Virus record (IMG/VR): IMGVR_UViG_3300021963_004854
Location: 107,567 to 171,566 of that record
Source: a virus
Strand: one strand, 5' to 3'
DNA length: 64,000 bases
A program made the position numbers and the translations under genes. Below are positions 17,693 through 25,861 of this stretch, in pieces (the stretch's first letter is position 1; each line of letters opens with the position of its first letter). A model generated the notes under the pieces. The model did no database searches. It worked only from the letters and a program-made list of their open reading frames with translations, and was not told where the DNA came from.

Positions 17693-17780
17693 GGAAGCGT
17701 GGGTGAGTGGTTGAAACCTACAGTCTTGAAAACTGTCGTACCGCAAGGTACCGTGGGTTCGAATCCCACCGCTTCCTCCA
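17693..17780 (+). tRNA. tRNA-Ser(TGA)
   Basis: Cloverleaf, long variable arm, CCA. Confidence 0.95.
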
Positions 17781-17784
17781 GTTT

Positions 17785-17860
17785 GGGGATGTAGTCCAAT
17801 GGCAGAGACAGAGGACTTAAAATCCTTCCAGTGTGGGTTCGAGTCCCACCATCCCTACCA
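17785..17860 (+). tRNA. tRNA-Leu(TAA), short variable loop
   Basis: GAGGA-CTTAAAA-TCCTT, T-loop TTCGAGT, CCA. Confidence 0.9.
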
Positions 17861-17861
17861 A

Positions 17862-17937
17862 TGCCCCTTGGTGTAATTGGCAACACGTCGGATTTTGATT
17901 CCGAAAAGTCCAGGTTCGAGCCCTGGAGGGGCATCCA
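17862..17937 (+). tRNA. tRNA-Gln(TTG)
   Basis: TCGGA-TTTTGAT-TCCGA, CCA. Confidence 0.95.
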
Positions 17938-17956
17938 TTCTTAGAAAGGTTATATA

Positions 17957-18193
17957 ATGAGTGATGTTGTAGCAGTAGACCAACTTCGTCTGTTTATTGA
18001 ACGTATTGAAAACATCGAAGTGGAAATTGATGCGAAGAAGACTGACCGCAAGGAAGTCTATTCAGAATTGAAGGGTGAAGGCTTTGATGCCAAGGCAGTT
18101 CGTGCTATTGTGCGCCTCCGTAAGAAGGAAGCACATATCCGTCAAGAAGAAGATATGATTCTTGATACATATCGAAATGCAATTGGCGTTTAA
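17957..18193 (+). CDS. gapR: GapR/DUF2312 nucleoid-associated protein
   Basis: DQLRLFIERIE..E.E......KEVY.E.KG.GFD.KA.R.IV.LRK....E...L.Y..A.G. Confidence 0.9.
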   Translation: MSDVVAVDQLRLFIERIENIEVEIDAKKTDRKEVYSELKGEGFDAKAVRAIVRLRKKEAHIRQEEDMILDTYRNAIGV

Positions 18194-18784
18194 TTAAAAA
18201 GTTCCGGGGTCTATCAACCCAACTTCTTTAAATGCCCATGCTCTTTCGTTGCATTGCCAACAAGAGCCACAACGTTCTCCTGTAGTTTCAGTGCAACTAT
18301 GAGAGAGTTTAGATATATCTTCTAAAATTCCCGCCTGATGTGCTAACTTGACTGTTTCGCTTTTATCTATTTTTGCAAATGGAAAATGCCAGCCAGTATA
18401 GTTCGCATCAGGCGGAATTCTTACTGGCTCTGTTCCAGGTAGTGTTACGGGTGGATTTTGAGTGTCCGCACTTATCAATGTCTTAAATCCAAAACGAAAT
18501 AGTTGTTCGGCTGGATATGAGATATGTCTACTATGATGTAATCCCACCGGAATTGAAACGATTAGATGGTCTATCTCAATTTCATGTAGTTTTTCTGCCC
18601 ATTCGCAAATCGATTTACCAAAATCTACTGCGGCAGAGCCTCTATCTATCGTAATGCAACGTAGAGAGTTTAAGCCGCTTTTCTTTGCTTCAATGCAATA
18701 TAAATGAAGCATGAGGGCGCTATCGAAACCGCCGCTAATAAACAGTCCGAAATTACCCTCGGGAATAGTAATTGAATACGTCAT
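18194..18784 (-). CDS. QueC-like PP-loop ATP pyrophosphatase
   Basis: SGGFDS; HSC.E....CG.CWQC.ER Zn site; start moved to MTYSITIP. Confidence 0.75.
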   Translation of the reverse strand: MTYSITIPEGNFGLFISGGFDSALMLHLYCIEAKKSGLNSLRCITIDRGSAAVDFGKSICEWAEKLHEIEIDHLIVSIPVGLHHSRHISYPAEQLFRFGFKTLISADTQNPPVTLPGTEPVRIPPDANYTGWHFPFAKIDKSETVKLAHQAGILEDISKLSHSCTETTGERCGSCWQCNERAWAFKEVGLIDPGTF

Positions 18785-18862
18785 AGATGAACCTTTAATA
18801 TAATCACGATTATATTTAGTTTCGAATTTATGCTTGACATTTGGTAGTGAATTAGTTATATA

Positions 18863-19906
18863 ATGATGATGAAGAAAAAATATCAAATTACTCACATGGG
18901 CAAGACCCTCAACACCGACCACTGGTATGACTTACCAGAAGATAAATGTCTGGAGTTGAAGGCTGCGTATTATCAAAAGCCAGATTTTGATTTGGTTGAG
19001 AAAAATCTGCAGGCCGTGCGCAACGGCGGCACTGTTATCAGTACCATTACTAGCTATTATGTGAAAGACCTAATGGCTAAAGTCAAGTTGCAATCTCCTC
19101 GTTGGTCTATCGAACAAGTGTTTGAGTCCAACGATTTGATACGATACTTTTGGAGCCGAGTGCTTTCAAGCGATAAAGTATACCCAAAGACGGATTCAGA
19201 TATCAAGAACTTTGAGGCTGCCCTGCGACTTAGTGGCGGTGGTGTTGCGATGAAGCCGTCTAACTATCCTATTAAGTCAGTAGACGAGGTGTTATCCAAA
19301 TATAACATCAATGGTAAATACTATGATTTCTCGTGTGGTTGGGGCGTAAGATTGCTCTCGGCAATGAGAAATCGGGTTGAGTATTACGGCACTGACCCGA
19401 ATAATCTGTTGGTAGACCGACTTAGGCAGATGGCCACAGATTACAATACTGTAAATGGTACGAATGCATCGTATGACATTAGATGCCATGGTTCTGAAAC
19501 ATTCGTGCCAGAATGGGAAAACACTATCGGAGTAGCCTTTAGTAGCCCCCCGTATTTCAGTCTTGAAGACTATGGTGTTGGCAATCAGTCATATAAGCCT
19601 GGGACTTCCTATCAAGAGTGGCTAGATAACTATCTGCGACCCACGATAGAGAACATCAAGAAATATTTGATTGAAGACGGCAAGATGCTCGTTAACATCA
19701 AAGATTTCTTAGATTACAAGCTATGCGCTGATACTAGAGCCATTGCAGAAAGTCTAGGGTTTCATTATGTTGAAACACTCACGTTGAAGAACATAACGAG
19801 GCCAAGTGCCAAAGCAGATTTGAATACGGATGAAGGCATTATGGTGTTCTCGAAAAAGCCTGTGCAGCCTAACCCATTCAGCGAAACGCTATTCATTTTT
19901 GAATAA
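18863..19906 (+). CDS. DNA amino-methyltransferase (m4C/m6A)
   Basis: YDFSCGWG.RL (motif I) then FSSPPYF..E.Y (motif IV); TTGACA..TATAAT promoter upstream. Confidence 0.85.
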   Translation: MMMKKKYQITHMGKTLNTDHWYDLPEDKCLELKAAYYQKPDFDLVEKNLQAVRNGGTVISTITSYYVKDLMAKVKLQSPRWSIEQVFESNDLIRYFWSRVLSSDKVYPKTDSDIKNFEAALRLSGGGVAMKPSNYPIKSVDEVLSKYNINGKYYDFSCGWGVRLLSAMRNRVEYYGTDPNNLLVDRLRQMATDYNTVNGTNASYDIRCHGSETFVPEWENTIGVAFSSPPYFSLEDYGVGNQSYKPGTSYQEWLDNYLRPTIENIKKYLIEDGKMLVNIKDFLDYKLCADTRAIAESLGFHYVETLTLKNITRPSAKADLNTDEGIMVFSKKPVQPNPFSETLFIFE

Positions 19907-19918
19907 CAAAATTAGTGG

Positions 19919-19978
19919 TTGACATTTACCTGCGAATCAGCTATAAAGAAAGAGTAGTTGATGACGAGGTGATTCGAA
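19919..19978 (+). promoter_or_regulatory. Early promoter cassette (GANTC family)
   Basis: TTGACA 19919, CGAATC 19933, TATAAA 19942, TGATTCG 19970. Confidence 0.85.
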
Positions 19979-20365
19979 ATGCTTACTCTTGCCGATATTA
20001 ATGCTGCCACCAATTCTAAAGATGGCAATATCTATTCCGACCTCTACAAGGATGTTTACGGCAGCCGTCCTCGGTATGCCCAGTTCGCATCCATCGAAGA
20101 GTTCGATGCGGATTTCGAACGCCTTGTGGCTCGTCTGGCCGAACAGATTGACGAAGATAAGATTCGTCAGGATGCAAATCTTGAAGCATTCAAGGTGCGC
20201 GTGGCAGAAACCATGCTTCTTTGTAACTGCGACAAGGTTCGCGCCGTAGAAATCATCGCCGATGCTGAAGGCGAACTTGAGAACCTTGAGTTCTACAGTT
20301 ACGAACGCCTTGAGTGGTACTTCGATATTAAATTCGGAGATATCAAGCAGTGGATGGCTGAATAA
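19979..20365 (+). CDS. Early hypothetical protein
   Basis: YSDLYKDVYG.RPR motif; follows a promoter cassette. Confidence 0.8.
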   Translation: MLTLADINAATNSKDGNIYSDLYKDVYGSRPRYAQFASIEEFDADFERLVARLAEQIDEDKIRQDANLEAFKVRVAETMLLCNCDKVRAVEIIADAEGELENLEFYSYERLEWYFDIKFGDIKQWMAE

Positions 20366-20371
20366 GTTTTT

Positions 20372-20446
20372 GCGCCTGTAGCTCAAAGGTAGAGCCAGCC
20401 CCTCATAAGGGCCAGGTTGCGGGTTCGAGTCCTGCCGGGCGCACCA
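20372..20446 (+). tRNA. tRNA-CAT (probably Ile2; Met possible)
   Basis: Loop CTCATAA; C4:G69 and C5:G68 as in TilS substrates; CCA. Confidence 0.85.
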
Positions 20447-20456
20447 AATATAATAC

Positions 20457-20515
20457 TTGACATTCTCTGTAAATCTGCTATTATGAGAATGTAGTAAGTG
20501 AGAAAGTGATTCGTT
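20457..20515 (+). promoter_or_regulatory. Early promoter cassette
   Basis: TTGACA 20457, AAATC variant, TATTAT 20479, TGATTCG 20507. Confidence 0.8.
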
Positions 20516-20716
20516 ATGGAAGTTTTTGCATTGTTAGGTGAATGGGATTACGAAGGTTCTGTGCTCCTTGGCGTGTATGCGTCTCAAGATGAAGCACGGA
20601 ATGCCCATGGTGTGTATACTCGTGATGGCGATCGGCTCATCGACCGCTACTATGTTGAGCGTCGGACGCTCGGTGCACCTGTAGATTCCGATGAGTATCG
20701 GTACTACATCGGTTAA
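20516..20716 (+). CDS. Early hypothetical protein
   Basis: Follows a promoter cassette; DYEG..LLGVY.S...A. Confidence 0.75.
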   Translation: MEVFALLGEWDYEGSVLLGVYASQDEARNAHGVYTRDGDRLIDRYYVERRTLGAPVDSDEYRYYIG

Positions 20717-20726
20717 AGTTTAACAT

Positions 20727-20802
20727 GGACGATTAGCTCAGTCGGTAGAGCGCGGGACTCTTAATCCTTAGGTCGTAGGTTCGAATCCTACATCGTCTAC
20801 CA
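20727..20802 (+). tRNA. tRNA-Lys(CTT)
   Basis: Cloverleaf, CCA. Confidence 0.93.
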
Positions 20803-20808
20803 TTTCAC

Positions 20809-20884
20809 GGACACTTAGCTCAGTAGGTAGAGCAACGGGCTTTTAACCTGTAGGTCCTGGGTTCGAACCCCAGAGTGTCCACCA
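20809..20884 (+). tRNA. tRNA-Lys(TTT)
   Basis: Cloverleaf, CCA. Confidence 0.95.
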
Positions 20885-20889
20885 TATTT

Positions 20890-20965
20890 GCGAGTGTAGC
20901 TCAGTTGGTAGAGCAAACGACCGATAATCGTTAGGTCACAGGTTCGAACCCTGTCACTCGCACCA
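20890..20965 (+). tRNA. tRNA-Ile(GAT), C33
   Basis: AACGA-CCGATAA-TCGTT, CCA. Confidence 0.9.
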
Positions 20966-20966
20966 T

Positions 20967-21038
20967 ACCAGCAGAACAAGTGTTCGACCGACTCTCATAA
21001 GGTTGGTTCGGGTGGAGCGTTACCACCTGCTGGTACCA
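20967..21038 (+). tRNA. Non-canonical tRNA-like RNA with CAT anticodon
   Basis: ACCAGCA/TGCTGGT acceptor + A + CCA; mini D-arm; 7-bp anticodon stem; T-loop AGCGTTA. Confidence 0.7.
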
Positions 21039-21039
21039 T

Positions 21040-21117
21040 GTCACGATGGCAGAGTGGTCCAATGCAACGGATTGCAAATCCGTAAAGCCGCCGGTTCGAA
21101 TCCGGCTCGTGACTCCA
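21040..21117 (+). tRNA. tRNA-Cys(GCA)
   Basis: Cloverleaf, U73, CCA. Confidence 0.93.
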
Positions 21118-21121
21118 CAAT

Positions 21122-21196
21122 GCGGGTGTAGCTCAGTGGTAGAGCATCTCGTTGCCAACGAGACGGTCGGCGGTTCGAATCCGCTCCCCCGCTCCA
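21122..21196 (+). tRNA. tRNA-Gly(GCC)
   Basis: GCGGG start, U73, CCA. Confidence 0.93.
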
Positions 21197-21199
21197 AAT

Positions 21200-21274
21200 G
21201 GCCCGGTCGTCTAGTGGCTAGGACACCGCCCTTTCAAGGCGGAGAAGCGGGATCGAAACCCGTTCGGGCTACCA
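21200..21274 (+). tRNA. tRNA-Glu(TTC)
   Basis: CCGCC-CTTTCAA-GGCGG, T-loop ATCGAAA, CCA. Confidence 0.92.
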
Positions 21275-21290
21275 TTTAGAAAGTGTTGTT

Positions 21291-21467
21291 ATGGTTAAAA
21301 TGATTTTTGCATTTTTGTTTATTTTTGCCCTTGTATTCTTTGGAATTCAAATTGTTCGAGATATGACAAAAAGTGAAAAATTAGGCTTGACAAAGTTGTT
21401 CGCCTATAGTATAGTGTGTTCTGTAGCAGCGATGGCCGTTGCCACAGCAATTGTTTTGATTTTCTAA
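21291..21467 (+). CDS. Small two-TM membrane protein (58 aa, not in ORF track)
   Basis: MVKMIFAFLFIFALVFFGIQ...AVATAIVLIF*; contains a TTGACA-17-TATAGT promoter (21387-21415) for the next gene. Confidence 0.65.
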   Translation: MVKMIFAFLFIFALVFFGIQIVRDMTKSEKLGLTKLFAYSIVCSVAAMAVATAIVLIF

Positions 21468-21481
21468 GGAATAAAGTTATT

Positions 21482-22279
21482 ATGAAAAGTGTTACCAAAG
21501 CTGTTCTTCTCGCTGGCCTTATGGCAACGACTGCCGCTTGTACCCGGATTGAAACAGGTGAAGTCGGCGTTCGTCGCTCGTTTGATAAGACCATCGAAAC
21601 TACCGAACTTCTGCCTGGTTCTGTAAACCAGACTATCTTCGGTGATGTTATGACCTTTCCCACAAAGGACGTTCAGGTCGATGTTACTGATTTGACGCCT
21701 CTGGCATCTGATAACTCGACTGTTGCTGACTTCGATATGGCAGTCATCTATTCGATTAATCCTGGTTCGGTTGCCGAACTCTACATCGAAAAGAACCGCG
21801 GTTTCCACGCTGATACCGAAGAAGGTGATACGCTGTTGATGTATAACTACATCCGCCAGCTTGGCCGTAATGCTGCATATAAGGTTGCTCGTCGTTACGA
21901 GTCCTTGAAGATGGCAGATAACCGCGCAGAGATGGAACAGATGATTCGCCAGGAAATCGTTAACAGTCTTGTTGCCGAAAAGCTAGATGGTGCAATTTCT
22001 GTTTCACAGGTTCTTGTTCGCCAGGTAAAGCCCGCTGCAAACATCGTAGCATCTGCTAACGCCCTTGTTCAAGCCCAGAATGCTGAAAAGCAGAAGCAGG
22101 TAGAAGTTCGCACCGCAAAGCTAGAAGCACAGCGAATTGCCGCTTTGAATGCCAACGCTGGTGCTACCAAGTATATGGAAGCAACCGCAATTGTTACGAT
22201 TGCAGAAGCAGTGAAAGACGGTAAGGTTAATACCATCGTCATTCCTTATGACTTCAAGGGTATTGTGAACGTTAAGTAA
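21482..22279 (+). CDS. SPFH/Band 7 lipoprotein
   Basis: Lipobox TTAAC, RIETGEVGVR, SPFH core, C-term coiled coil; AAGGA RBS. Confidence 0.88.
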   Translation: MKSVTKAVLLAGLMATTAACTRIETGEVGVRRSFDKTIETTELLPGSVNQTIFGDVMTFPTKDVQVDVTDLTPLASDNSTVADFDMAVIYSINPGSVAELYIEKNRGFHADTEEGDTLLMYNYIRQLGRNAAYKVARRYESLKMADNRAEMEQMIRQEIVNSLVAEKLDGAISVSQVLVRQVKPAANIVASANALVQAQNAEKQKQVEVRTAKLEAQRIAALNANAGATKYMEATAIVTIAEAVKDGKVNTIVIPYDFKGIVNVK

Positions 22280-22287
22280 TACTGATT

Positions 22288-22374
22288 GGAAGGTGGGCAG
22301 GACGGTAATGCAACGCACTGCTAATGCGTCTACTAGAAATGGTAGAGTGGGTTCGACTCCCACACCTTCCGCCA
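22288..22374 (+). tRNA. tRNA-Ser(GCT)
   Basis: Long variable arm, G73, CCA. Confidence 0.93.
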
Positions 22375-22393
22375 GTTATAAGTAATAGAATAT

Positions 22394-22471
22394 GGTGGAT
22401 GTAGCTCAGTTGGTTAGAGTGTCGGCTTGTGATGCCGAATGTCGCGGGTTCGAGTCCCGTCATTCACCCCA
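22394..22471 (+). tRNA. tRNA-His(GTG) with encoded G-1 and C73
   Basis: G-GTGGATG...CATTCAC-C-CCA. Confidence 0.95.
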
Positions 22472-22501
22472 TTAAAAAAATAAAAAAATTGAAAATAATA
22501 C

Positions 22502-22562
22502 TTGACATTTTCGACAAAGTAGTATATATATTAGTTCTGTTCTTTGACATTGTTAGAAGTTT
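22502..22562 (+). promoter_or_regulatory. Promoter plus boxA leader of the second RNA operon (repeat copy 2)
   Basis: A-tract, TTGACA 22502, TATATA, then the 28-bp repeat 22535-22562. Confidence 0.75.
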
Positions 22563-22599
22563 CTAAGTTTGTGTCGGGAGGGTTTCGGCCCTCCCACAT

Positions 22600-22760
22600 A
22601 ACTTATTTAATTACTCCTGCTGAGAGTAGCGCATATGGACGCATATGCTAGGCGGGCTGGGTGGGCCATCTACCAGTCCTGAAATAATCTCAGCAATGGC
22701 TTAGGAGAGGAAGCACCTCACTCCGAAATTCGCTCATGAGCAGGAGTAATTAAATGAGTT
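22600..22760 (+). ncRNA. Unknown structured RNA closed by a 22-bp stem
   Basis: AACTTATTTAATTACTCCTGCT pairs with AGCAGGAGTAATTAAATGAGTT; at least three inner hairpins. Confidence 0.6.
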
Positions 22761-22762
22761 TT

Positions 22763-22838
<76 letters not shown>

Positions 22839-22845
22839 TTCTATA

Positions 22846-22924
22846 GCTAAACTACTCGCATGCCGTATGGTGCATGGAGTCTGTCGAGAATGTTTAGCGT
22901 AAGCACCAAGACGTGAGGTGCTTA
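22846..22924 (+). ncRNA. Two-hairpin structured spacer
   Basis: GCTAAAC/GTTTAGC and TAAGCACC/GGTGCTTA. Confidence 0.4.
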
Positions 22925-22927
22925 TAT

Positions 22928-23002
22928 TCCCTAATGGCGCAGCGGTAGCGCAGTTGACTGTTAATCAATTGGTCGGTGGTTCGAATCCATCTTAGGGAGC
23001 CA
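22928..23002 (+). tRNA. tRNA-Asn(GTT)
   Basis: Cloverleaf, G73, CCA. Confidence 0.95.
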
Positions 23003-23008
23003 GTTTGA

Positions 23009-23083
23009 CGCAGGGTGGAGCAGAGGTAGCTCGTCTGGCTCATAACCAGAAGGTCGTCGGTTCAAGTCCGACTCCTGCAACCA
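23009..23083 (+). tRNA. Initiator tRNA-fMet(CAT)
   Basis: C1.A72 mismatch, GAGC/GCTC D-stem, CCA. Confidence 0.9.
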
Positions 23084-23084
23084 G

Positions 23085-23185
23085 TTTAGTATCTTTGATC
23101 TGGGACACGCATACTAAGTCGTGCATATAAACTAAGATGCCCTGCATTCAGGGCTACGTAGGGGAAGATCCTACAAGATACTAAA
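23085..23185 (+). ncRNA. Unknown multi-stem RNA
   Basis: TTTAGTATCTT/AAGATACTAAA closing stem; GCCCTG/CAGGGC and GTAGG/CCTAC hairpins. Confidence 0.5.
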
Positions 23186-23289
23186 ACACCGCCGCCCGTA
23201 TGGTGTATAACAATCCCGGGCCTAGTTTCTCGTAAATATTTTTCAAAAAAGTATTTACAAACACCACACAGTGGTGTATAAGTAGAGAA

Positions 23290-24142
23290 TAAGAAATGGC
23301 GGTATAGCGTCATTAGGGTAACCTTCGGCAACGAAGGCCAAAGCAGGGACTCCTACGTACCTGCGCCGGTAACGGTCCATCTATACAAGCCCAGGTAAGG
23401 GTTGTCTCGGCCATGGCCGTAAGCAATCCCCGTCAGTAGAATGGCGGTAGGCAGTAAGTGAGTGATATAAGTCCGAAAGGATATGAACAGAGCCAGTCGG
23501 TGAGTTCTAATAGACTGTGGTGGTCTAGCTGTATCGAACCAAACTCGCGAATGCTGAAAAACTAATGGGTAATCGCTGAGTCTGATCTAGCAAGAAAAGG
23601 CAAAGCGGTAGCACAATAGTTGAACCGATGAGGGGAGACTAGAAGTGCGGTTGATTAGTCCGCAAGACGAAAGACATGAGGAGTGTTGTATTTTGTATCT
23701 AACAAGATACGAAGCAACTGGAGCAGCACTTCTTGGTAGGTTCGCAAATTGCTTAATGGTAAAGCAACTGACTCTTAATCAGTAGATTCTAGGTTCAAAT
23801 CCTAGTTTGTAACAAAAAGCGAAAGTCTGCTCCAGTGCTATGTGAAAGGTGCTTAATACCTAACACGGAAGTGAATTGGGTTCACGGATTCCCGCAAGGA
23901 TGAAGTGATTGATCCGAGTGAAGACGTAGCGGTTTAGCGACTGCGAACAGCTTGCAAGGCTGGCGGAAGAACGAAGGTCGAATAGCATAGCATGATAAGT
24001 GATAAGCCACACTTCAAAAAAGGCAGCACTGAGGAATACTAGATGACCAGCGATGGCTCTAGTGGATAACGAGTTAACACTTCTCGCAAGGAAGTCGGTA
24101 CGGCTCAAAGGTCCTCAACTAAAAGCAGTAATCTCATGCTTT
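23290..24142 (+). ncRNA. GOLLD-like giant structured RNA (about 850 nt; ends approximate)
   Basis: No credible + strand ORF; own promoter TTTACA-17-TATAAG; many GCAA/GAAA/TTCG-capped hairpins; ACTGGAGCAG/CTGCTCCAGT long-range stem; 3' end AAAGCAGTAATCTCATGCTTT resembles GOLLD as I recall it; lies in a tRNA array. Confidence 0.7.
23742..23812 (+). tRNA. tRNA-Lys(CTT)-like domain embedded in the giant RNA (no CCA)
   Basis: GCTT-AATGGTA-AAGC, ACTGA-CTCTTAA-TCAGT, CTAGG-TTCAAAT-CCTAG; weak acceptor stem. Confidence 0.7.
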
Positions 24143-24145
24143 ACA

Positions 24146-24238
24146 AAGACTTATTAGATGAACACATCAAACCCACTGGGCGGCAGGTCGACTTAATGCT
24201 GCGATAGCGGTCCCTGGTGTGTTCTTCTAATAAGTTTT
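24146..24238 (+). ncRNA. Unknown RNA closed by a 24-bp stem
   Basis: AAGACTTATTAGATGAACACATCA pairs with TGGTGTGTTCTTCTAATAAGTTTT (one U-U mismatch). Confidence 0.55.
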
Positions 24239-24314
24239 GGGGAATTAGCTCAGATGGTAGAGCGCCAGCTTTGCAAGCTGGATGTCAACGGTTCGATCCC
24301 GTTATTCTCCACCA
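24239..24314 (+). tRNA. tRNA-Ala(TGC)
   Basis: G3:U70, CCA. Confidence 0.95.
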
Positions 24315-24319
24315 ATATA

Positions 24320-24449
24320 GACCACCTATGCTGAACCTCGTGGGGAACCACATAGAGAAAGTGGTAGTGTATGCTGTTGCAACAGTAATTGCTATCTAGG
24401 AAGATTGCAACGTCCGGAAGTAAGCAATCAAGGCACACTGCGGGTGGTC
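24320..24449 (+). ncRNA. Unknown multi-stem RNA, possible pseudoknot
   Basis: GACCACCT/GGGTGGTC closing stem; GTGG/CCAC, ATTGCT/AGCAAT, GTTGCAA/TTGCAAC. Confidence 0.5.
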
Positions 24450-24458
24450 ACTCTTTTT

Positions 24459-24541
24459 GCGCCTATGGTGGAATTGGTAGACACGCTGGTTTTAGGTACC
24501 AGTGCGAAAGCGTGGGGGTTCGAGTCCCTCTAGGCGTACCA
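24459..24541 (+). tRNA. tRNA-Leu(TAG)
   Basis: Type II cloverleaf, CCA. Confidence 0.95.
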
Positions 24542-24547
24542 TTATAT

Positions 24548-24623
24548 GCTCCTGTAGCTCAGTTGGTAGAGCATCGGTTTGAAGAACCGAGTGTCGGCGG
24601 TTCGAACCCGTCTGGGAGCACCA
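24548..24623 (+). tRNA. tRNA-Phe(GAA)
   Basis: TCGGT-TTGAAGA-ACCGA (G37), CCA. Confidence 0.93.
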
Positions 24624-24628
24624 GCTAT

Positions 24629-24713
24629 GGGTCGGTAAAGCCAGTGGCTCTGGCAGTCGGACTGTAAATCCGATCCGTTTTCGGGGGAGGATCGATACCT
24701 CACTGGCCCACCA
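24629..24713 (+). tRNA. tRNA-Tyr(GTA), atypical D- and T-arms
   Basis: TCGGA-CTGTAAA-TCCGA, V-arm CCG-TTTT-CGG, T-loop ATCGATA, CCA. Confidence 0.8.
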
Positions 24714-24714
24714 A

Positions 24715-24791
24715 GGTCTGGTAGCTCAGTTGGTTAGAGCGTCGGCCTGTCACGCCGAAGGTCGCGGGTTCAAGTCCCGTCCAGATCGCCA
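24715..24791 (+). tRNA. tRNA-Asp(GTC)
   Basis: Cloverleaf, G73, CCA. Confidence 0.95.
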
Positions 24792-24810
24792 TTACAATAA
24801 ATATATTCAT

Positions 24811-24883
24811 GCGACTGTTCTCCTGGGTGAGGACTCAGCCTTCCAAGCTGACGGAGAGGGTTCGAATCCCTTCGGTCGCTCCA
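24811..24883 (+). tRNA. tRNA-Gly(TCC), atypical D-arm
   Basis: TCAGC-CTTCCAA-GCTGA, U73, CCA. Confidence 0.85.
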
Positions 24884-24885
24884 AT

Positions 24886-24966
24886 GCCCCCGTATACCCT
24901 CTGGCTACGAACCAGTGGAAAGGTTAACTGAATTACATGCAGGTTTGAGTCCTGTCGGGGGCTCCA
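24886..24966 (+). tRNA. D-armless tRNA-Arg(ACG)-like RNA
   Basis: GCCCCCG/CGGGGGC acceptor + T + CCA; CTGG-CTACGAA-CCAG; T-arm GCAGG-TTTGAGT-CCTGT; no D hairpin. Confidence 0.65.
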
Positions 24967-24988
24967 TTCTCAACGAAGGAAAAATAAT

Positions 24989-25168
24989 ATGAATATCAAA
25001 ACTTACATGGCTCTAGCAGTTGCCGCTCTTACTGCCGCTTGCGCTCCAGCTTCGGAAAAACCATCGGTTGCAGAAGCCGCTGGTCCAGCCGCAGAAGAAG
25101 CACTTGCTACAGCAAATGCAACAGAAGCAGTAGAGCCTGCTCTTGGTGAAAATGAAAAGCCAAAGTAA
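24989..25168 (+). CDS. Small Ala/Glu-rich lipoprotein (59 aa, not in ORF track)
   Basis: MNIKTYMALAVAALTAAC lipobox; AAGGA RBS. Confidence 0.75.
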   Translation: MNIKTYMALAVAALTAACAPASEKPSVAEAAGPAAEEALATANATEAVEPALGENEKPK

Positions 25169-25178
25169 TTAAAAGTTT

Positions 25179-25255
<77 letters not shown>

Positions 25256-25261
25256 GTTTTT

Positions 25262-25336
25262 GTCGGTGTGTTGTAACGGTAACATGCAGGTCTCCAAAAC
25301 CTTGCGATCCGGGTTCGAATCCTGGCACCCTCGCCA
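25262..25336 (+). tRNA. tRNA-Trp(CCA), mismatched acceptor stem
   Basis: AGGT-CTCCAAA-ACCT, G73, CCA; pairs 2:71 and 3:70 mismatched. Confidence 0.8.
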
Positions 25337-25354
25337 TTTTATGACAGGTGACTT

Positions 25355-25795
25355 ATGTATGATAAAGCAAGAGAAGCAATTCTAAACTCTAGTGAAACGT
25401 CATCTGTTTATATCGGTGCCGATTCTATTAGGTTCAAGCGTAAAGACGGTCATTGGTATGCTAAGTATTCTACCGTCATTATTCTTCATATGGATTCTAA
25501 GCACGGTGCTAGAATTTTTCATAAAAACATTGAAATGCGTGACTTTGGTAACTTACGCCAACGTCTAATAGCGGAAGTTGGATTTGCTATCGAAGCCGCA
25601 ACGGCAATACTTGACGTTTTGGGTGAAAGAAAGTTGGAAATTCATCTTGACATTAACCCAAATCCAAAGTATAAGAGTAATGTAGCCGTGAAAGAAGCAC
25701 TCGGCTACGTTAAAGGAACTCTTGGTATTGATGCTAAGATCAAGCCAGAGTCCTTCGCTGCAACACATGCGGCGGACCACGTTGTGCGGGGTTAG
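25355..25795 (+). CDS. RNase H-like YkuK-family protein
   Basis: YIGADS, RL..EV, LEIHLDIN...KSN, IKP.SFAA...AD. Confidence 0.85.
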   Translation: MYDKAREAILNSSETSSVYIGADSIRFKRKDGHWYAKYSTVIILHMDSKHGARIFHKNIEMRDFGNLRQRLIAEVGFAIEAATAILDVLGERKLEIHLDINPNPKYKSNVAVKEALGYVKGTLGIDAKIKPESFAATHAADHVVRG

Positions 25796-25861
25796 CTCAG
25801 TTGGTAGAGCGTCTGCTTTACACGCAGAATGTCGGCGGTTCGAGCCCGTCACTCCGTACCA
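25786..25861 (+). tRNA. tRNA-Val(TAC)
   Basis: Cloverleaf, CCA; overlaps the last 10 nt of the upstream CDS. Confidence 0.95.

What the first reader, a model, noticed from the sequence alone, without database searches (positions are those of the whole stretch)
24886..24966. D-armless tRNA-Arg(ACG) with a long 3'-side insertion
Seen: a perfect 7-bp acceptor, CCA and T-arm. Only TATACCCT separates the acceptor from the anticodon hairpin CTGG-CTACGAA-CCAG. It is followed by 23 nt (TGGAAAGGTTAACTGAATTACAT) whose AGG could pair back with CCT and which carries D-loop-like GG and A residues. Known: D-armless tRNAs are typical of mitochondria, and bacterial ArgRS normally needs A20 in the D-loop. Inference: a rewired fold in which D-loop functions come from the variable region, or a TadA/ArgRS decoy.
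Basis: partly seen in the sequence, partly recalled or inferred. Interest (0 to 1): 0.8.

Follow-up and report, generated by a model that had tools for sequence, protein, structure and literature searches.

The report
Phage tRNA with rewired D-arm
This 81-base gene is one member of a large, unannotated family of phage tRNAs (Arg and Ile) in which the two D-stem strands pair around the anticodon arm and the D-loop follows it, apparently keeping the normal L-shape with a different chain order.

Summary
Window 24886-24966 has a perfect 7-bp acceptor stem, a T-arm, CCA and a CTACGAA (ACG) hairpin, but no D hairpin. Default ARAGORN and Rfam's tRNA model both miss it.

It is not a degenerate gene. 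The same architecture recurs in over 130 viral contigs and about 85 cultured Streptomyces and Microbacterium phage genomes. There it is almost always unannotated.

Covariation supports four helices. One is a 3-4 bp "D*" helix (24895-24898 with 24922-24925) that encloses the anticodon arm. Three canonical tertiary contacts also covary: 19:56, 15:48 and 18:55. In this member G19:C56 has become A24931:U24946.

The segment after D* has the same sequence as the D-loops of canonical phage tRNA-Arg(ACG).

Family anticodons are only Arg (ACG, TCG, GCG, TCT, CCT) and Ile (GAT, TAT, one CAT). Position 20 is A in 56/56 Arg members and U in 40/41 Ile members.

Best reading: a working tRNA-Arg(ACG→ICG) whose D/anticodon domain (nt 10-45) is internally permuted. 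Charging, A34 editing and expression were not tested. I found no prior description in the searchable literature or in Rfam 15. The scan's own index shows this stretch flagged only in this genome, not on other DNA.

The parts
24886..24892 (+). Acceptor stem, 5' strand (GCCCCCG)
   Evidence: 7/7 Watson-Crick pairs with 24956-24962. All 7 pairs show compensatory changes across 102 members.
24893..24894 (+). U8 and A9 equivalents (TA)
   Evidence: Invariant in the 102-sequence alignment. TA is also positions 8-9 in 38 of 41 canonical phage tRNA-Arg(ACG) genes.
24895..24898 (+). D* helix, 5' strand (TACC). It takes the place of canonical 22-25: T24895 opposite T24925 (U.U), then A-T, C-G, C-G.
   Evidence: Pair 24896:24924 occurs as A-U 69, G-C 9, C-G 8, U-A 2. 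The other two pairs also show double changes. Members not selected by pattern have CAC/GTG, CGAT/ATCG and CCC/GGG at this place.
24899..24899 (+). C, proposed equivalent of position 26, pairing with G24918
   Evidence: C-G in 101/102 members, with only one double change. This pair is inferred rather than shown.
24900..24916 (+). Anticodon arm: U.U (24900/24916) plus 4 bp CTGG/CCAG, loop CTACGAA (24905-24911), anticodon ACG 24907-24909
   Evidence: All 4 stem pairs covary. The loop has U33 and A37, and its sequence is the commonest in the family. The identical 15-nt arm occurs in 76 hits with canonical tRNA spacing, 41 of them parsed as unique canonical phage tRNA-Arg(ACG) genes.
24917..24921 (+). 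Linker GGAAA: variable N, G (pairs with C24899), and an AAA bulge. It joins the anticodon stem to the D* 3' strand.
   Evidence: N varies freely, while G-A-A-A is at least 90% conserved. Its role in base triples is inferred.
24922..24925 (+). D* helix, 3' strand (GGTT), taking the place of canonical 10-13 (G10 conserved)
   Evidence: Covaries with 24895-24898. In 98 members A/T occurs 88 times and G/C 10 times, never mixed (Fisher 7e-14).
24926..24935 (+). D-loop equivalent AACTGAATTA: A14 24926, A15 24927, G18 24930, A19 24931, A20 24932
   Evidence: Same string as the D-loops of canonical phage tRNA-Arg (AACTGAATA, AACTGGATA). 19:56 is G:C 93 and A:U 5 with no exceptions, and A20 is present in 56/56 Arg members.
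24936..24938 (+). CAT connector; T24938 is the position-48 (Levitt-pair) partner of A24927
   Evidence: 15:48 occurs as A:U 77, G:C 12, U:G 2, G:U 3, A:C 4 (Fisher 9e-10). It passes the shuffle and slide controls.
24939..24955 (+). T-arm GCAGG-TTTGAGT-CCTGT, with U56 (24946) instead of C56
   Evidence: Four of 5 stem pairs covary. T54 and A58 are invariant in 98/98 members. U56 occurs only together with A19.
24956..24966 (+). Acceptor 3' strand CGGGGGC, discriminator T, encoded CCA
   Evidence: Whether CCA is encoded follows the canonical neighbours: 2x2 table 44/3/1/40, p=3e-20.

Best explanation
Window 24886-24966 encodes a working elongator tRNA-Arg with anticodon ACG, probably read as ICG after TadA deamination. 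It belongs to a phage-borne tRNA class in which the D/anticodon domain is internally permuted.

Gene order: acceptor 5' strand; U8 A9; D-stem 3'-strand equivalent (22-25); 26; anticodon arm; short linker (44/45 equivalents plus an AAA bulge); D-stem 5'-strand equivalent (10-13); D-loop (14-21); C-A-U48; T-arm; acceptor 3' strand; N73; CCA.

The D-stem therefore forms around the anticodon arm and stacks on it. The stack is 4 + 1 + 5 = 10 layers, the same as canonical D-stem + 26:44 + anticodon stem. The D-loop leaves that helix as a single strand, makes the usual elbow contacts with the T-loop (18:55, 19:56), the Levitt pair (15:48) and probably U8:A14, and then runs straight into the T-stem instead of folding back.

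Shown here: the helices, the three covarying tertiary pairs, identity bases that track the isotype, and tRNA-like genomic behaviour.

Inferred: the L-shaped 3D fold; processing by RNase P; charging by host ArgRS through A20, C35 and G36; A34-to-I editing; and decoding of CGU, CGC and CGA on the ribosome.

Why phages keep this topology is unknown.
For: 1. Recurrence. 127 of 130 pattern hits in viral contigs parse as complete elements, against 13 of 103 in the far larger prokaryote collection, where the other 90 are chance matches.

2. Secondary structure. On 102 unique members 99.4% of cells pair, against 33-47% when partners are slid. The covariation score is 0.846 against 0.13-0.17, and 0 of 500 shuffles reach it. 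All three D* pairs show double compensatory changes, including in members found only by the covariance model.

3. Tertiary contacts. 19:56 is G:C 93 and A:U 5 with no exceptions. The A:U form is seen in the window group, in L027 and in L115. 15:48 is A:U 77, G:C 12, U:G 2. 18:55 changes from G:U to A:G in L142 and L165.

4. Homology. Canonical phage tRNA-Arg(ACG) genes with the identical anticodon arm have D-loops AACTGGATA or AACTGAATA, and their GA variants also go with TTTGA T-loops.

5. Identity elements. Position 20 is A in 56/56 Arg members and U in 40/41 Ile members. N73 is A in 41/41 Ile members. U33 and A37 are conserved.

6. Genomic behaviour. 101 of 133 occurrences lie within 300 nt of a same-strand tRNA. 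Only 9 of 133 have a canonical tRNA of the same anticodon in the fetched stretch. Encoded CCA follows the neighbours (p=3e-20).

7. This phage. It is the only ACG tRNA among 27 tRNA genes. CGT, CGC and CGA make up 57% of its Arg codons. The gene sits 2 nt after tRNA-Gly and encodes CCA, like its neighbours.
Against: Members were collected with text patterns and a pairing filter. That inflates the percent-paired figures for the acceptor, anticodon and T stems, although it does not affect D* or the tertiary pairs.

Sequences are phylogenetically related, so the Fisher p-values overstate independence.

The thermodynamic consensus fold (RNAalifold) prefers a different register for the closing helix, CCT/AGG. 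That register is invariant, so it is neither supported nor excluded as an alternative state.

C24899-G24918 and the role of the AAA bulge rest on conservation only.

Whether three altered backbone junctions are compatible with EF-Tu, the ribosome and ArgRS is argued from the known tRNA core geometry, not modelled.

This member's discriminator is U73, seen in 9 of 56 Arg members; most have G or A.
Confidence: 0.75

Rival explanations
1. It is a tRNA-like decoy or regulator. The RNA folds like a tRNA and binds ArgRS, TadA, an anticodon nuclease or another tRNA-binding factor, but it is not used in translation.
For: The core connectivity differs from every tRNA known to work on a bacterial ribosome, and standard detectors reject it. 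tRNA-targeting defence systems are a recognised pressure on phages (background knowledge). No functional data exist here.
Against: A decoy for one factor would not need eight different anticodons whose position 20 and discriminator switch in step with the amino acid. It would not need to fill decoding slots that are otherwise empty in the arrays. It would not need to copy its neighbours' CCA-encoding habit. It would not need to keep acceptor, T-arm, elbow and anticodon loop all at tRNA consensus. In this phage it is the only possible reader of 57% of Arg codons among the phage-encoded tRNAs.
Confidence: 0.15
2. It is a decaying tRNA pseudogene: a tRNA-Arg that lost its D-arm through a local rearrangement and is no longer functional.
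For: ARAGORN makes no default call, and the Rfam scores are below threshold (24.2 bits for tRNA, 21.7 for tRNA-Sec).
Against: The identical architecture is conserved in more than 100 distinct sequences with compensatory changes in every helix and in tertiary pairs. It spans phages of Actinobacteria and a phage with a probable Gram-negative host. The unpaired core nucleotides are 90-100% conserved.
Confidence: 0.02
3. It is a tRNA folded differently, with another anticodon. One version is ARAGORN's low-threshold fold, with stem CAGTG/AACTG and an 8-nt loop holding a 4-base anticodon AAGG. Another is the GenBank annotation of the Ile-type member in Streptomyces phage EGole as tRNA-Leu reading UUA.
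For: ARAGORN at -ps70 returns the alternative fold. One of 77 Streptomyces phage records annotates the homologous gene as tRNA-Leu.
Against: The GAAAGGTTA stretch these folds place in an anticodon loop is nearly invariant across members that differ in every identity feature. The hairpin loop, in contrast, carries U33 and A37 with a triplet that tracks position 20 and N73. The CAGT/ACTG pairing exists only in this member's lineage, because the CTGG/CCAG stem covaries with itself and not with downstream bases.
Confidence: 0.02
4. The transcript is rearranged after transcription, by cutting and religation, into a canonical cloverleaf. This would be analogous to the circularly permuted tRNA genes of red algae.
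For: Some carrier phages encode an RNA ligase beside the tRNA array (A3Wally). The gene order is a permutation of canonical elements.
Against: Restoring canonical order would need an internal block swap (two or three cuts and ligations), not a single circularisation. The acceptor halves are already in the normal order. The D* helix, the U.U pairs and the linker are conserved as if the permuted form itself is the folded product. No bulge-helix-bulge or other processing motif was seen.
Confidence: 0.03

Closest known systems
Canonical bacterial and phage tRNA-Arg(ACG), Rfam RF00005
   Same: 7-bp acceptor stem, 5-bp T-arm with T54 and A58, and the CUACGAA anticodon loop. The 15-nt anticodon arm is identical to that of 41 unique canonical phage genes. 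The D-loop sequence AACTG(G/A)ATA is the same, with A20. U8, A9 and G10 are kept, as are the 15:48, 18:55 and 19:56 contacts.
   Different: There is no D hairpin between positions 9 and 26. The D-stem strands lie on either side of the anticodon arm, and the D-loop is an open strand leading into the T-stem. It scores below Rfam's threshold (24.2 against 29 bits) and ARAGORN's default mode does not see it.
Mitochondrial D-armless tRNAs, for example metazoan mt tRNA-Ser(AGY)
   Same: There is no D hairpin, the junction is three-way, and the anticodon helix is extended.
   Different: Mitochondrial forms lose the D-loop and the G18G19/T-loop elbow contacts and are shortened (background knowledge; review PMC4394434). 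Here all D-loop nucleotides and elbow pairs are retained and covary, and the length is normal (77 nt plus CCA). The carriers are phages. ARAGORN's mitochondrial modes do not call it.
allo-tRNAs and other tRNAs with 8/4 or 9/3 acceptor/T branches (Mukai et al., PMC5389517)
   Same: They are also non-canonical tRNA architectures found by mining genomes, metagenomes and phages, and they are missed or mis-scored by standard tools.
   Different: Those change helix lengths within the normal cloverleaf order. This family keeps the helix lengths (7/5) but changes the order of the strands.
Circularly permuted tRNA genes (Cyanidioschyzon merolae; Soma, cited in PMC10085705)
   Same: The order of canonical tRNA segments in the gene is permuted.
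   Different: In those genes the whole tRNA is circularly permuted and the transcript is circularised and recut to give a standard tRNA. Here only an internal domain is permuted, the ends are normal, and conservation indicates that the permuted form is itself the folded product.
Natural non-circular permutations in ribozymes (Eckert et al. 2023, PMC10085705)
   Same: The same 3D architecture is reached with a rearranged 5'-to-3' order of elements that is not a simple circular permutation.
   Different: That was described for hairpin and hammerhead ribozymes. The paper states that no such permutations were known before it, and it does not report any for tRNA.

Membership tests
Canonical tRNA (Rfam RF00005) | 7-bp acceptor stem, discriminator, 3' CCA (encoded or added) | tested here: met
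   24886-24892 pairs with 24956-24962 at 7/7; T24963; CCA 24964-24966.
Canonical tRNA (Rfam RF00005) | T-arm: 5-bp stem, 7-nt loop with T54, U55, C56 and A58 | tested here: met
   GCAGG-TTTGAGT-CCTGT. T54, U55 and A58 are present. C56 is U here, compensated by A19.
Canonical tRNA (Rfam RF00005) | Anticodon arm with a 7-nt loop, U33 and a purine at 37 | tested here: met
   The loop is CTACGAA. The stem has 4 Watson-Crick pairs plus a conserved U.U at 27:43.
Canonical tRNA (Rfam RF00005) | D hairpin (stem 10-13/22-25 closing the D-loop) between position 9 and the anticodon arm | tested here: not met
   Only TATACCCT lies there. The D-stem strands flank the anticodon arm instead.
Canonical tRNA (Rfam RF00005) | Score at or above the family's gathering threshold (29 bits) | tested here: not met
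   24.2 bits. Not listed at the gathering threshold.
Canonical tRNA (Rfam RF00005) | Aminoacylation and use on the ribosome | not testable with these tools
   The evidence is indirect only: identity bases, codon usage and array context.
Permuted-core ('rewired D-arm') phage tRNA family defined here (model R1) | Order acc5'-UA-D*5'-N-anticodon arm-linker-D*3'-D-loop-CAY-T-arm-acc3', with D* pairing | tested here: met
   85 bits and E=3e-20 against R1, full length 1-77. It is row 1 of alignment A1.
Permuted-core ('rewired D-arm') phage tRNA family defined here (model R1) | D-loop equivalent paired to the T-loop (19:56) and to position 48 (15:48) | tested here: met
Mitochondrial-type D-armless tRNA | D-arm replaced by a short loop, with loss of the G18G19-T-loop contacts | tested here: not met
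   The D-loop nucleotides are retained and covary with the T-loop. ARAGORN -mt and -mtmam make no call.
tRNA-Sec (Rfam RF01852) | UCA anticodon, 8/5 or 9/4 acceptor/T branch, long variable arm, score of at least 47 bits | tested here: not met
   21.7 bits. The anticodon is ACG and the acceptor stem is 7 bp.
Circularly permuted tRNA gene | The 3' half of the tRNA precedes the 5' half in the gene | tested here: not met
   The acceptor 5' and 3' strands are in the normal order.

The most novel reading that the evidence does not exclude
Phages maintain a third tRNA architecture alongside the cloverleaf and the mitochondrial armless forms: a non-circularly permuted core that is fully active in translation. 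Under this reading it persists because the altered D-stem and variable-region connectivity makes these Arg and Ile tRNAs poor substrates for tRNA-targeting host defence nucleases, or for the phage's own host-tRNA-depleting enzymes. The conserved U.U at 27:43, which leaves a 4-bp anticodon stem, might also widen wobble reading so that one ICG tRNA covers all four CGN codons (hypothesis from PMC13092985).
Probability: 0.2. Interest if true: 0.95.

Novelty: new variant of a known kind. Interest (0 to 1): 0.88.

Why it matters
The order of helices in the cloverleaf is treated as universal for cytosolic-type tRNAs. A widespread natural family that keeps the tertiary core but changes the strand order would matter in several ways.

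It would be the first non-circular permutation seen in a tRNA, as far as I could find.

It would give a natural experiment on which parts of tRNA connectivity ArgRS, IleRS, TadA, RNase P, EF-Tu and the ribosome actually need.

It reveals tRNA genes that are missing from phage annotations. At least 77 Streptomyces phage records lack this Ile gene, and this phage's only CGN decoder was invisible. That distorts analyses of tRNA complement against codon usage.

It offers a new scaffold for orthogonal tRNA engineering.

Cultured carrier phages and hosts exist, so every inferred step can be tested directly.

Tried and rejected
- ARAGORN with intron search and with the mitochondrial modes gave no call on the element.
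- ARAGORN's -ps70 fold (8-nt loop, anticodon 'aagg') was considered and rejected, because that loop sequence is invariant across isotypes.
- The weak tRNA-Sec match (21.7 bits) was rejected on anticodon and branch geometry.
- RNAalifold's CCT/AGG register for the closing helix is invariant, so it has no support. It cannot explain the strict 11:39 coupling.
- The pattern scan of prokaryote genomes gave mostly chance matches (90 of 103). The 13 real elements all sit in phage-like tRNA arrays on MAG contigs, so I found no evidence for a cellular chromosomal copy.
- The search for a co-travelling protein found only homing-endonuclease-like genes (GIY-YIG, HNH, HTH) and PF04308 RNase-H-like genes. 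None accompanies more than 21 of the 106 distinct elements.
- Ten literature searches found no description of this architecture. The library covers only open-access papers and bioRxiv, so a prior report in a subscription journal cannot be excluded.
- A first 1-kb similarity search of GenBank phages returned only generic tRNA matches.

Full report
**Setting.** The window is bases 107567-171566 of a complete 171,566-bp viral (IMG/VR) record with 42% G+C. A same-strand tRNA array runs from 17693 to 25861. It includes a GOLLD RNA at 23678-24140. Nearby genes include a T4-type RNase H and an OmpA-like beta-barrel protein, so the host is probably Gram-negative (inference). The finding lies 2 nt downstream of tRNA-Gly(TCC).

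Coordinates were checked by script:

| Part | Coordinates | Sequence |
|---|---|---|
| Acceptor 5' strand | 24886-24892 | GCCCCCG |
| Spacer | 24893-24900 | TATACCCT |
| Hairpin | 24901-24915 | CTGG-CTACGAA-CCAG |
| 3' segment (23 nt) | 24916-24938 | |
| T-arm | 24939-24955 | GCAGG-TTTGAGT-CCTGT |
| Acceptor 3' strand | 24956-24962 | CGGGGGC |
| Discriminator | 24963 | T |
| CCA | 24964-24966 | CCA |

Default ARAGORN skips the element. Rfam's tRNA model gives 24.2 bits against a cut-off of 29. The only other Rfam signal is a sub-threshold tRNA-Sec-like match of 21.7 bits. A single-sequence fold is not exceptional, with a z-score of -1.5. The sequence alone therefore cannot decide what this is.

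**It is one member of a large family.**
- A scan of viral contigs anchored on the anticodon arm and T-loop returned 108 loci. Of these, 76 have normal tRNA spacing and 29 have the long spacing seen here.
- Of 130 pattern hits in viral contigs, 127 parse as complete elements with a 7-bp acceptor stem, an anticodon hairpin and a T-arm.
- In the roughly 600-Gb prokaryote collection, where chance matches to the pattern are expected, only 13 of 103 hits parse. None of the 90 chance hits does. The pairing filter therefore does not create elements from noise.
- All 13 real prokaryote hits lie in dense tRNA arrays, and the 11 whose record titles were shown are MAG contigs. They are most likely phage DNA.
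- Cultured phages carry the element too. The Arg(ACG) form is in Streptomyces phages Mildred21, Braelyn, Persimmon, WhereRU and Navo and in Microbacterium phage A3Wally.
- An Ile(GAT) form matches 77 Streptomyces phage records, at 99% identity or more in 37 of the 81 matching records. It is unannotated in every listed record except EGole, which labels it tRNA-Leu.
- Across 133 occurrences in viral loci, default ARAGORN calls one.

**Secondary structure.**
- On a 102-sequence alignment (A1) the proposed structure is 99.4% paired. With partners slid it is 33-47% paired. The covariation score is 0.846 against 0.13-0.17, and no shuffle out of 500 reaches it.
- The new feature is a short helix I call D*. 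It is 24896-24898 (ACC) with 24922-24924 (GGT), plus a conserved U.U at 24895/24925. It closes over the anticodon arm.
- The first D* pair was not constrained by the search pattern. It is A-U in 88 of 98 standard members and G-C in 10, never mixed.
- A covariance model (R1) then found further members that no text pattern had selected. Their D* helices read CCC/GGG, CAC/GTG, CGAT/ATCG and TG(G)C/GCA at the same place.
- On that model-based alignment all three D* pairs show double compensatory changes.
That register never varies, and it leaves the strict 11:39 coupling unexplained. I take ACC/GGT as the supported register and note that the other could be an alternative state.

**Tertiary structure.** The bases after D* read A-A-C-T-G-A-A-T-T-A here and A-A-Y-T-G-G-A/T-T-A in most members.
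- Canonical phage tRNA-Arg(ACG) genes with the same 15-nt anticodon arm have D-loops AACTGGATA, AGTTGGATA or AACTGAATA. This segment is therefore the D-loop, moved.
- Numbered as a D-loop, G19 pairs with T-loop position 56 as G:C in 93 members and A:U in 5, with no exceptions. The window has A24931:U24946. The A:U state also occurs in L027 and in an Arg(TCT) member, L115.
- The same GA/TTTGA coupling is seen in canonical phage tRNA-Arg genes.
- The Levitt pair 15:48 is A:U 77, G:C 12, U:G 2, G:U 3 and A:C 4. The 18:55 contact changes from G:U to A:G in two related members.
- The 15:48 and 19:56 pairs taken alone pass both the shuffle and the slide controls.
- U8, A9, A14, T54 and A58 are invariant.

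**The model.** Gene order is acceptor 5' strand, U8 A9, [22-25], 26, anticodon arm, linker (N, G, AAA), [10-13], [14-21], C-A-U48, T-arm, acceptor 3' strand. This is an internal circular permutation of nucleotides 10-45, and a non-circular permutation of the tRNA as a whole.
- The stack of D* (4 layers), C24899-G24918 (1 layer) and the anticodon stem (5 layers) has the same 10 layers as D-stem + 26:44 + anticodon stem in a canonical tRNA. The anticodon-to-elbow distance can therefore be preserved.
- Each of the three new backbone junctions (9 to 22, 45 to 10, 21 to 46/48) joins residues that already touch in the canonical core. The relevant contacts are the 9-[12:23], 45-[10:25], 46-[13:22] and 21-[8:14] triples known from yeast tRNA-Phe. 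Closure is therefore plausible, but this is inference and was not modelled.
- A tandem duplication of the D-plus-anticodon segment followed by two deletions would produce this order (inference).

**Function.**
- Family anticodons are ACG, TCG, GCG, TCT and CCT (Arg) and GAT and TAT (Ile), plus one CAT member with Ile-like features.
- Position 20 is A in 56/56 Arg members. A20 is the main ArgRS identity base in E. coli (established knowledge). Position 20 is U in 40/41 Ile members, and N73 is A in 41/41 Ile members.
- The genes sit in tRNA arrays: 101 of 133 are within 300 nt of a same-strand tRNA. They rarely duplicate a canonical anticodon in the fetched stretch (9 of 133).
- They encode CCA when their canonical neighbours do, and omit it when the neighbours do (44/3/1/40, p=3e-20).
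- In this phage R1 finds one member only. The other Arg tRNA is a canonical TCT gene at genome position 96796.
- CGT, CGC and CGA make up 57% of the phage's Arg codons, and AGA makes up 33%.
- All of this fits a working tRNA-Arg(ICG). None of it is direct evidence of charging, editing or decoding.

**Rivals.**
- A decoy does not explain identity bases that track the isotype, or the filling of empty decoding slots.
- A pseudogene is excluded by the conservation and the compensatory changes.
- The alternative anticodon readings (ARAGORN's AAGG, EGole's UAA) place an invariant stretch in the anticodon loop.
- Post-transcriptional rearrangement into a cloverleaf would need an internal block swap, and it is at odds with conservation of the permuted helices.

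**Novelty.** Rfam 15 has no matching family. GenBank annotators missed the element. Ten full-text searches found no description. The nearest concept is non-circular permutation in ribozymes (PMC10085705), and that paper reports none for tRNA. Open-access coverage is incomplete, so an earlier report cannot be ruled out.

**Limits.**
- Members are related to one another and were gathered by pattern, so the p-values are indicative only.
- The C24899-G24918 pair, the role of the AAA bulge and the whole 3D picture are inferred.
- Why only Arg and Ile use this form, and why phages keep it, remain open. No co-travelling protein was found.

Noticed in passing
window 24629-24713 (+): A class II tRNA-Tyr(GTA), with a long variable arm and an odd T-loop ATCGATA, fills the gap between tRNA-Phe and tRNA-Asp. 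ARAGORN finds it only with a relaxed threshold (-ps80), and Rfam does not list it at the gathering threshold. With it and the rewired Arg gene, the phage encodes 27 tRNAs.
   Followed up: partly
G000:C1:96796-96872 (outside the window): A canonical tRNA-Arg(TCT) lies about 35 kb upstream of the array. Arg is therefore not supplied only by the odd gene, although CGN codons are.
   Followed up: yes
L322:1201-1277 (Streptomyces phage EGole, MK494112.1 75265-75341): The rewired tRNA-Ile(GAT) is annotated there as 'tRNA-Leu, codon recognized UUA', which looks like a mis-call. A nucleotidyltransferase gene ends 13 nt upstream, and these Ile genes do not encode CCA.
   Followed up: partly
window 25355-25795 (+); also L168:1770-2291 and about 10 other loci: A PF04308 'RNase H-like' protein recurs next to phage tRNA arrays that hold rewired tRNAs. 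It accompanies 11 of the 106 distinct elements, which is too few to call it a partner.
   Followed up: partly
L001, L017, L023, L034, L060, L095 (canonical phage tRNA-Arg(ACG) genes): Canonical phage tRNA-Arg genes also occur with A19 and U56 in place of G19:C56. This elbow variant is therefore not peculiar to the rewired class.
   Followed up: no
L075:4498-4574, L084:7455-7531, L145:5066-5139, L197:785-860: A second subtype of the rewired class has a quite different D* helix (TGGC with G-Y-GCA and a bulged G) and a different linker (TAGTGCAT...). It carries ACG, TCG and TCT anticodons. It may be an old split or an independent origin.
   Followed up: partly
window 23678-24140 (+): A GOLLD RNA (187 bits) with an embedded tRNA-Lys(CTT) at 23742-23813 sits inside the same tRNA array.
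   Followed up: no
window 18194-18922 (-): A QueC-like (PF06508) protein is encoded on the opposite strand, in the stretch between two tRNA clusters.
   Followed up: no
window 20967-21038 (+): There is a 72-nt gap between tRNA-Ile and tRNA-Cys that another first-stage note reads as a remodelled CAU tRNA. Model R1 does not match it, so it is not a member of the rewired class described here.
   Followed up: partly
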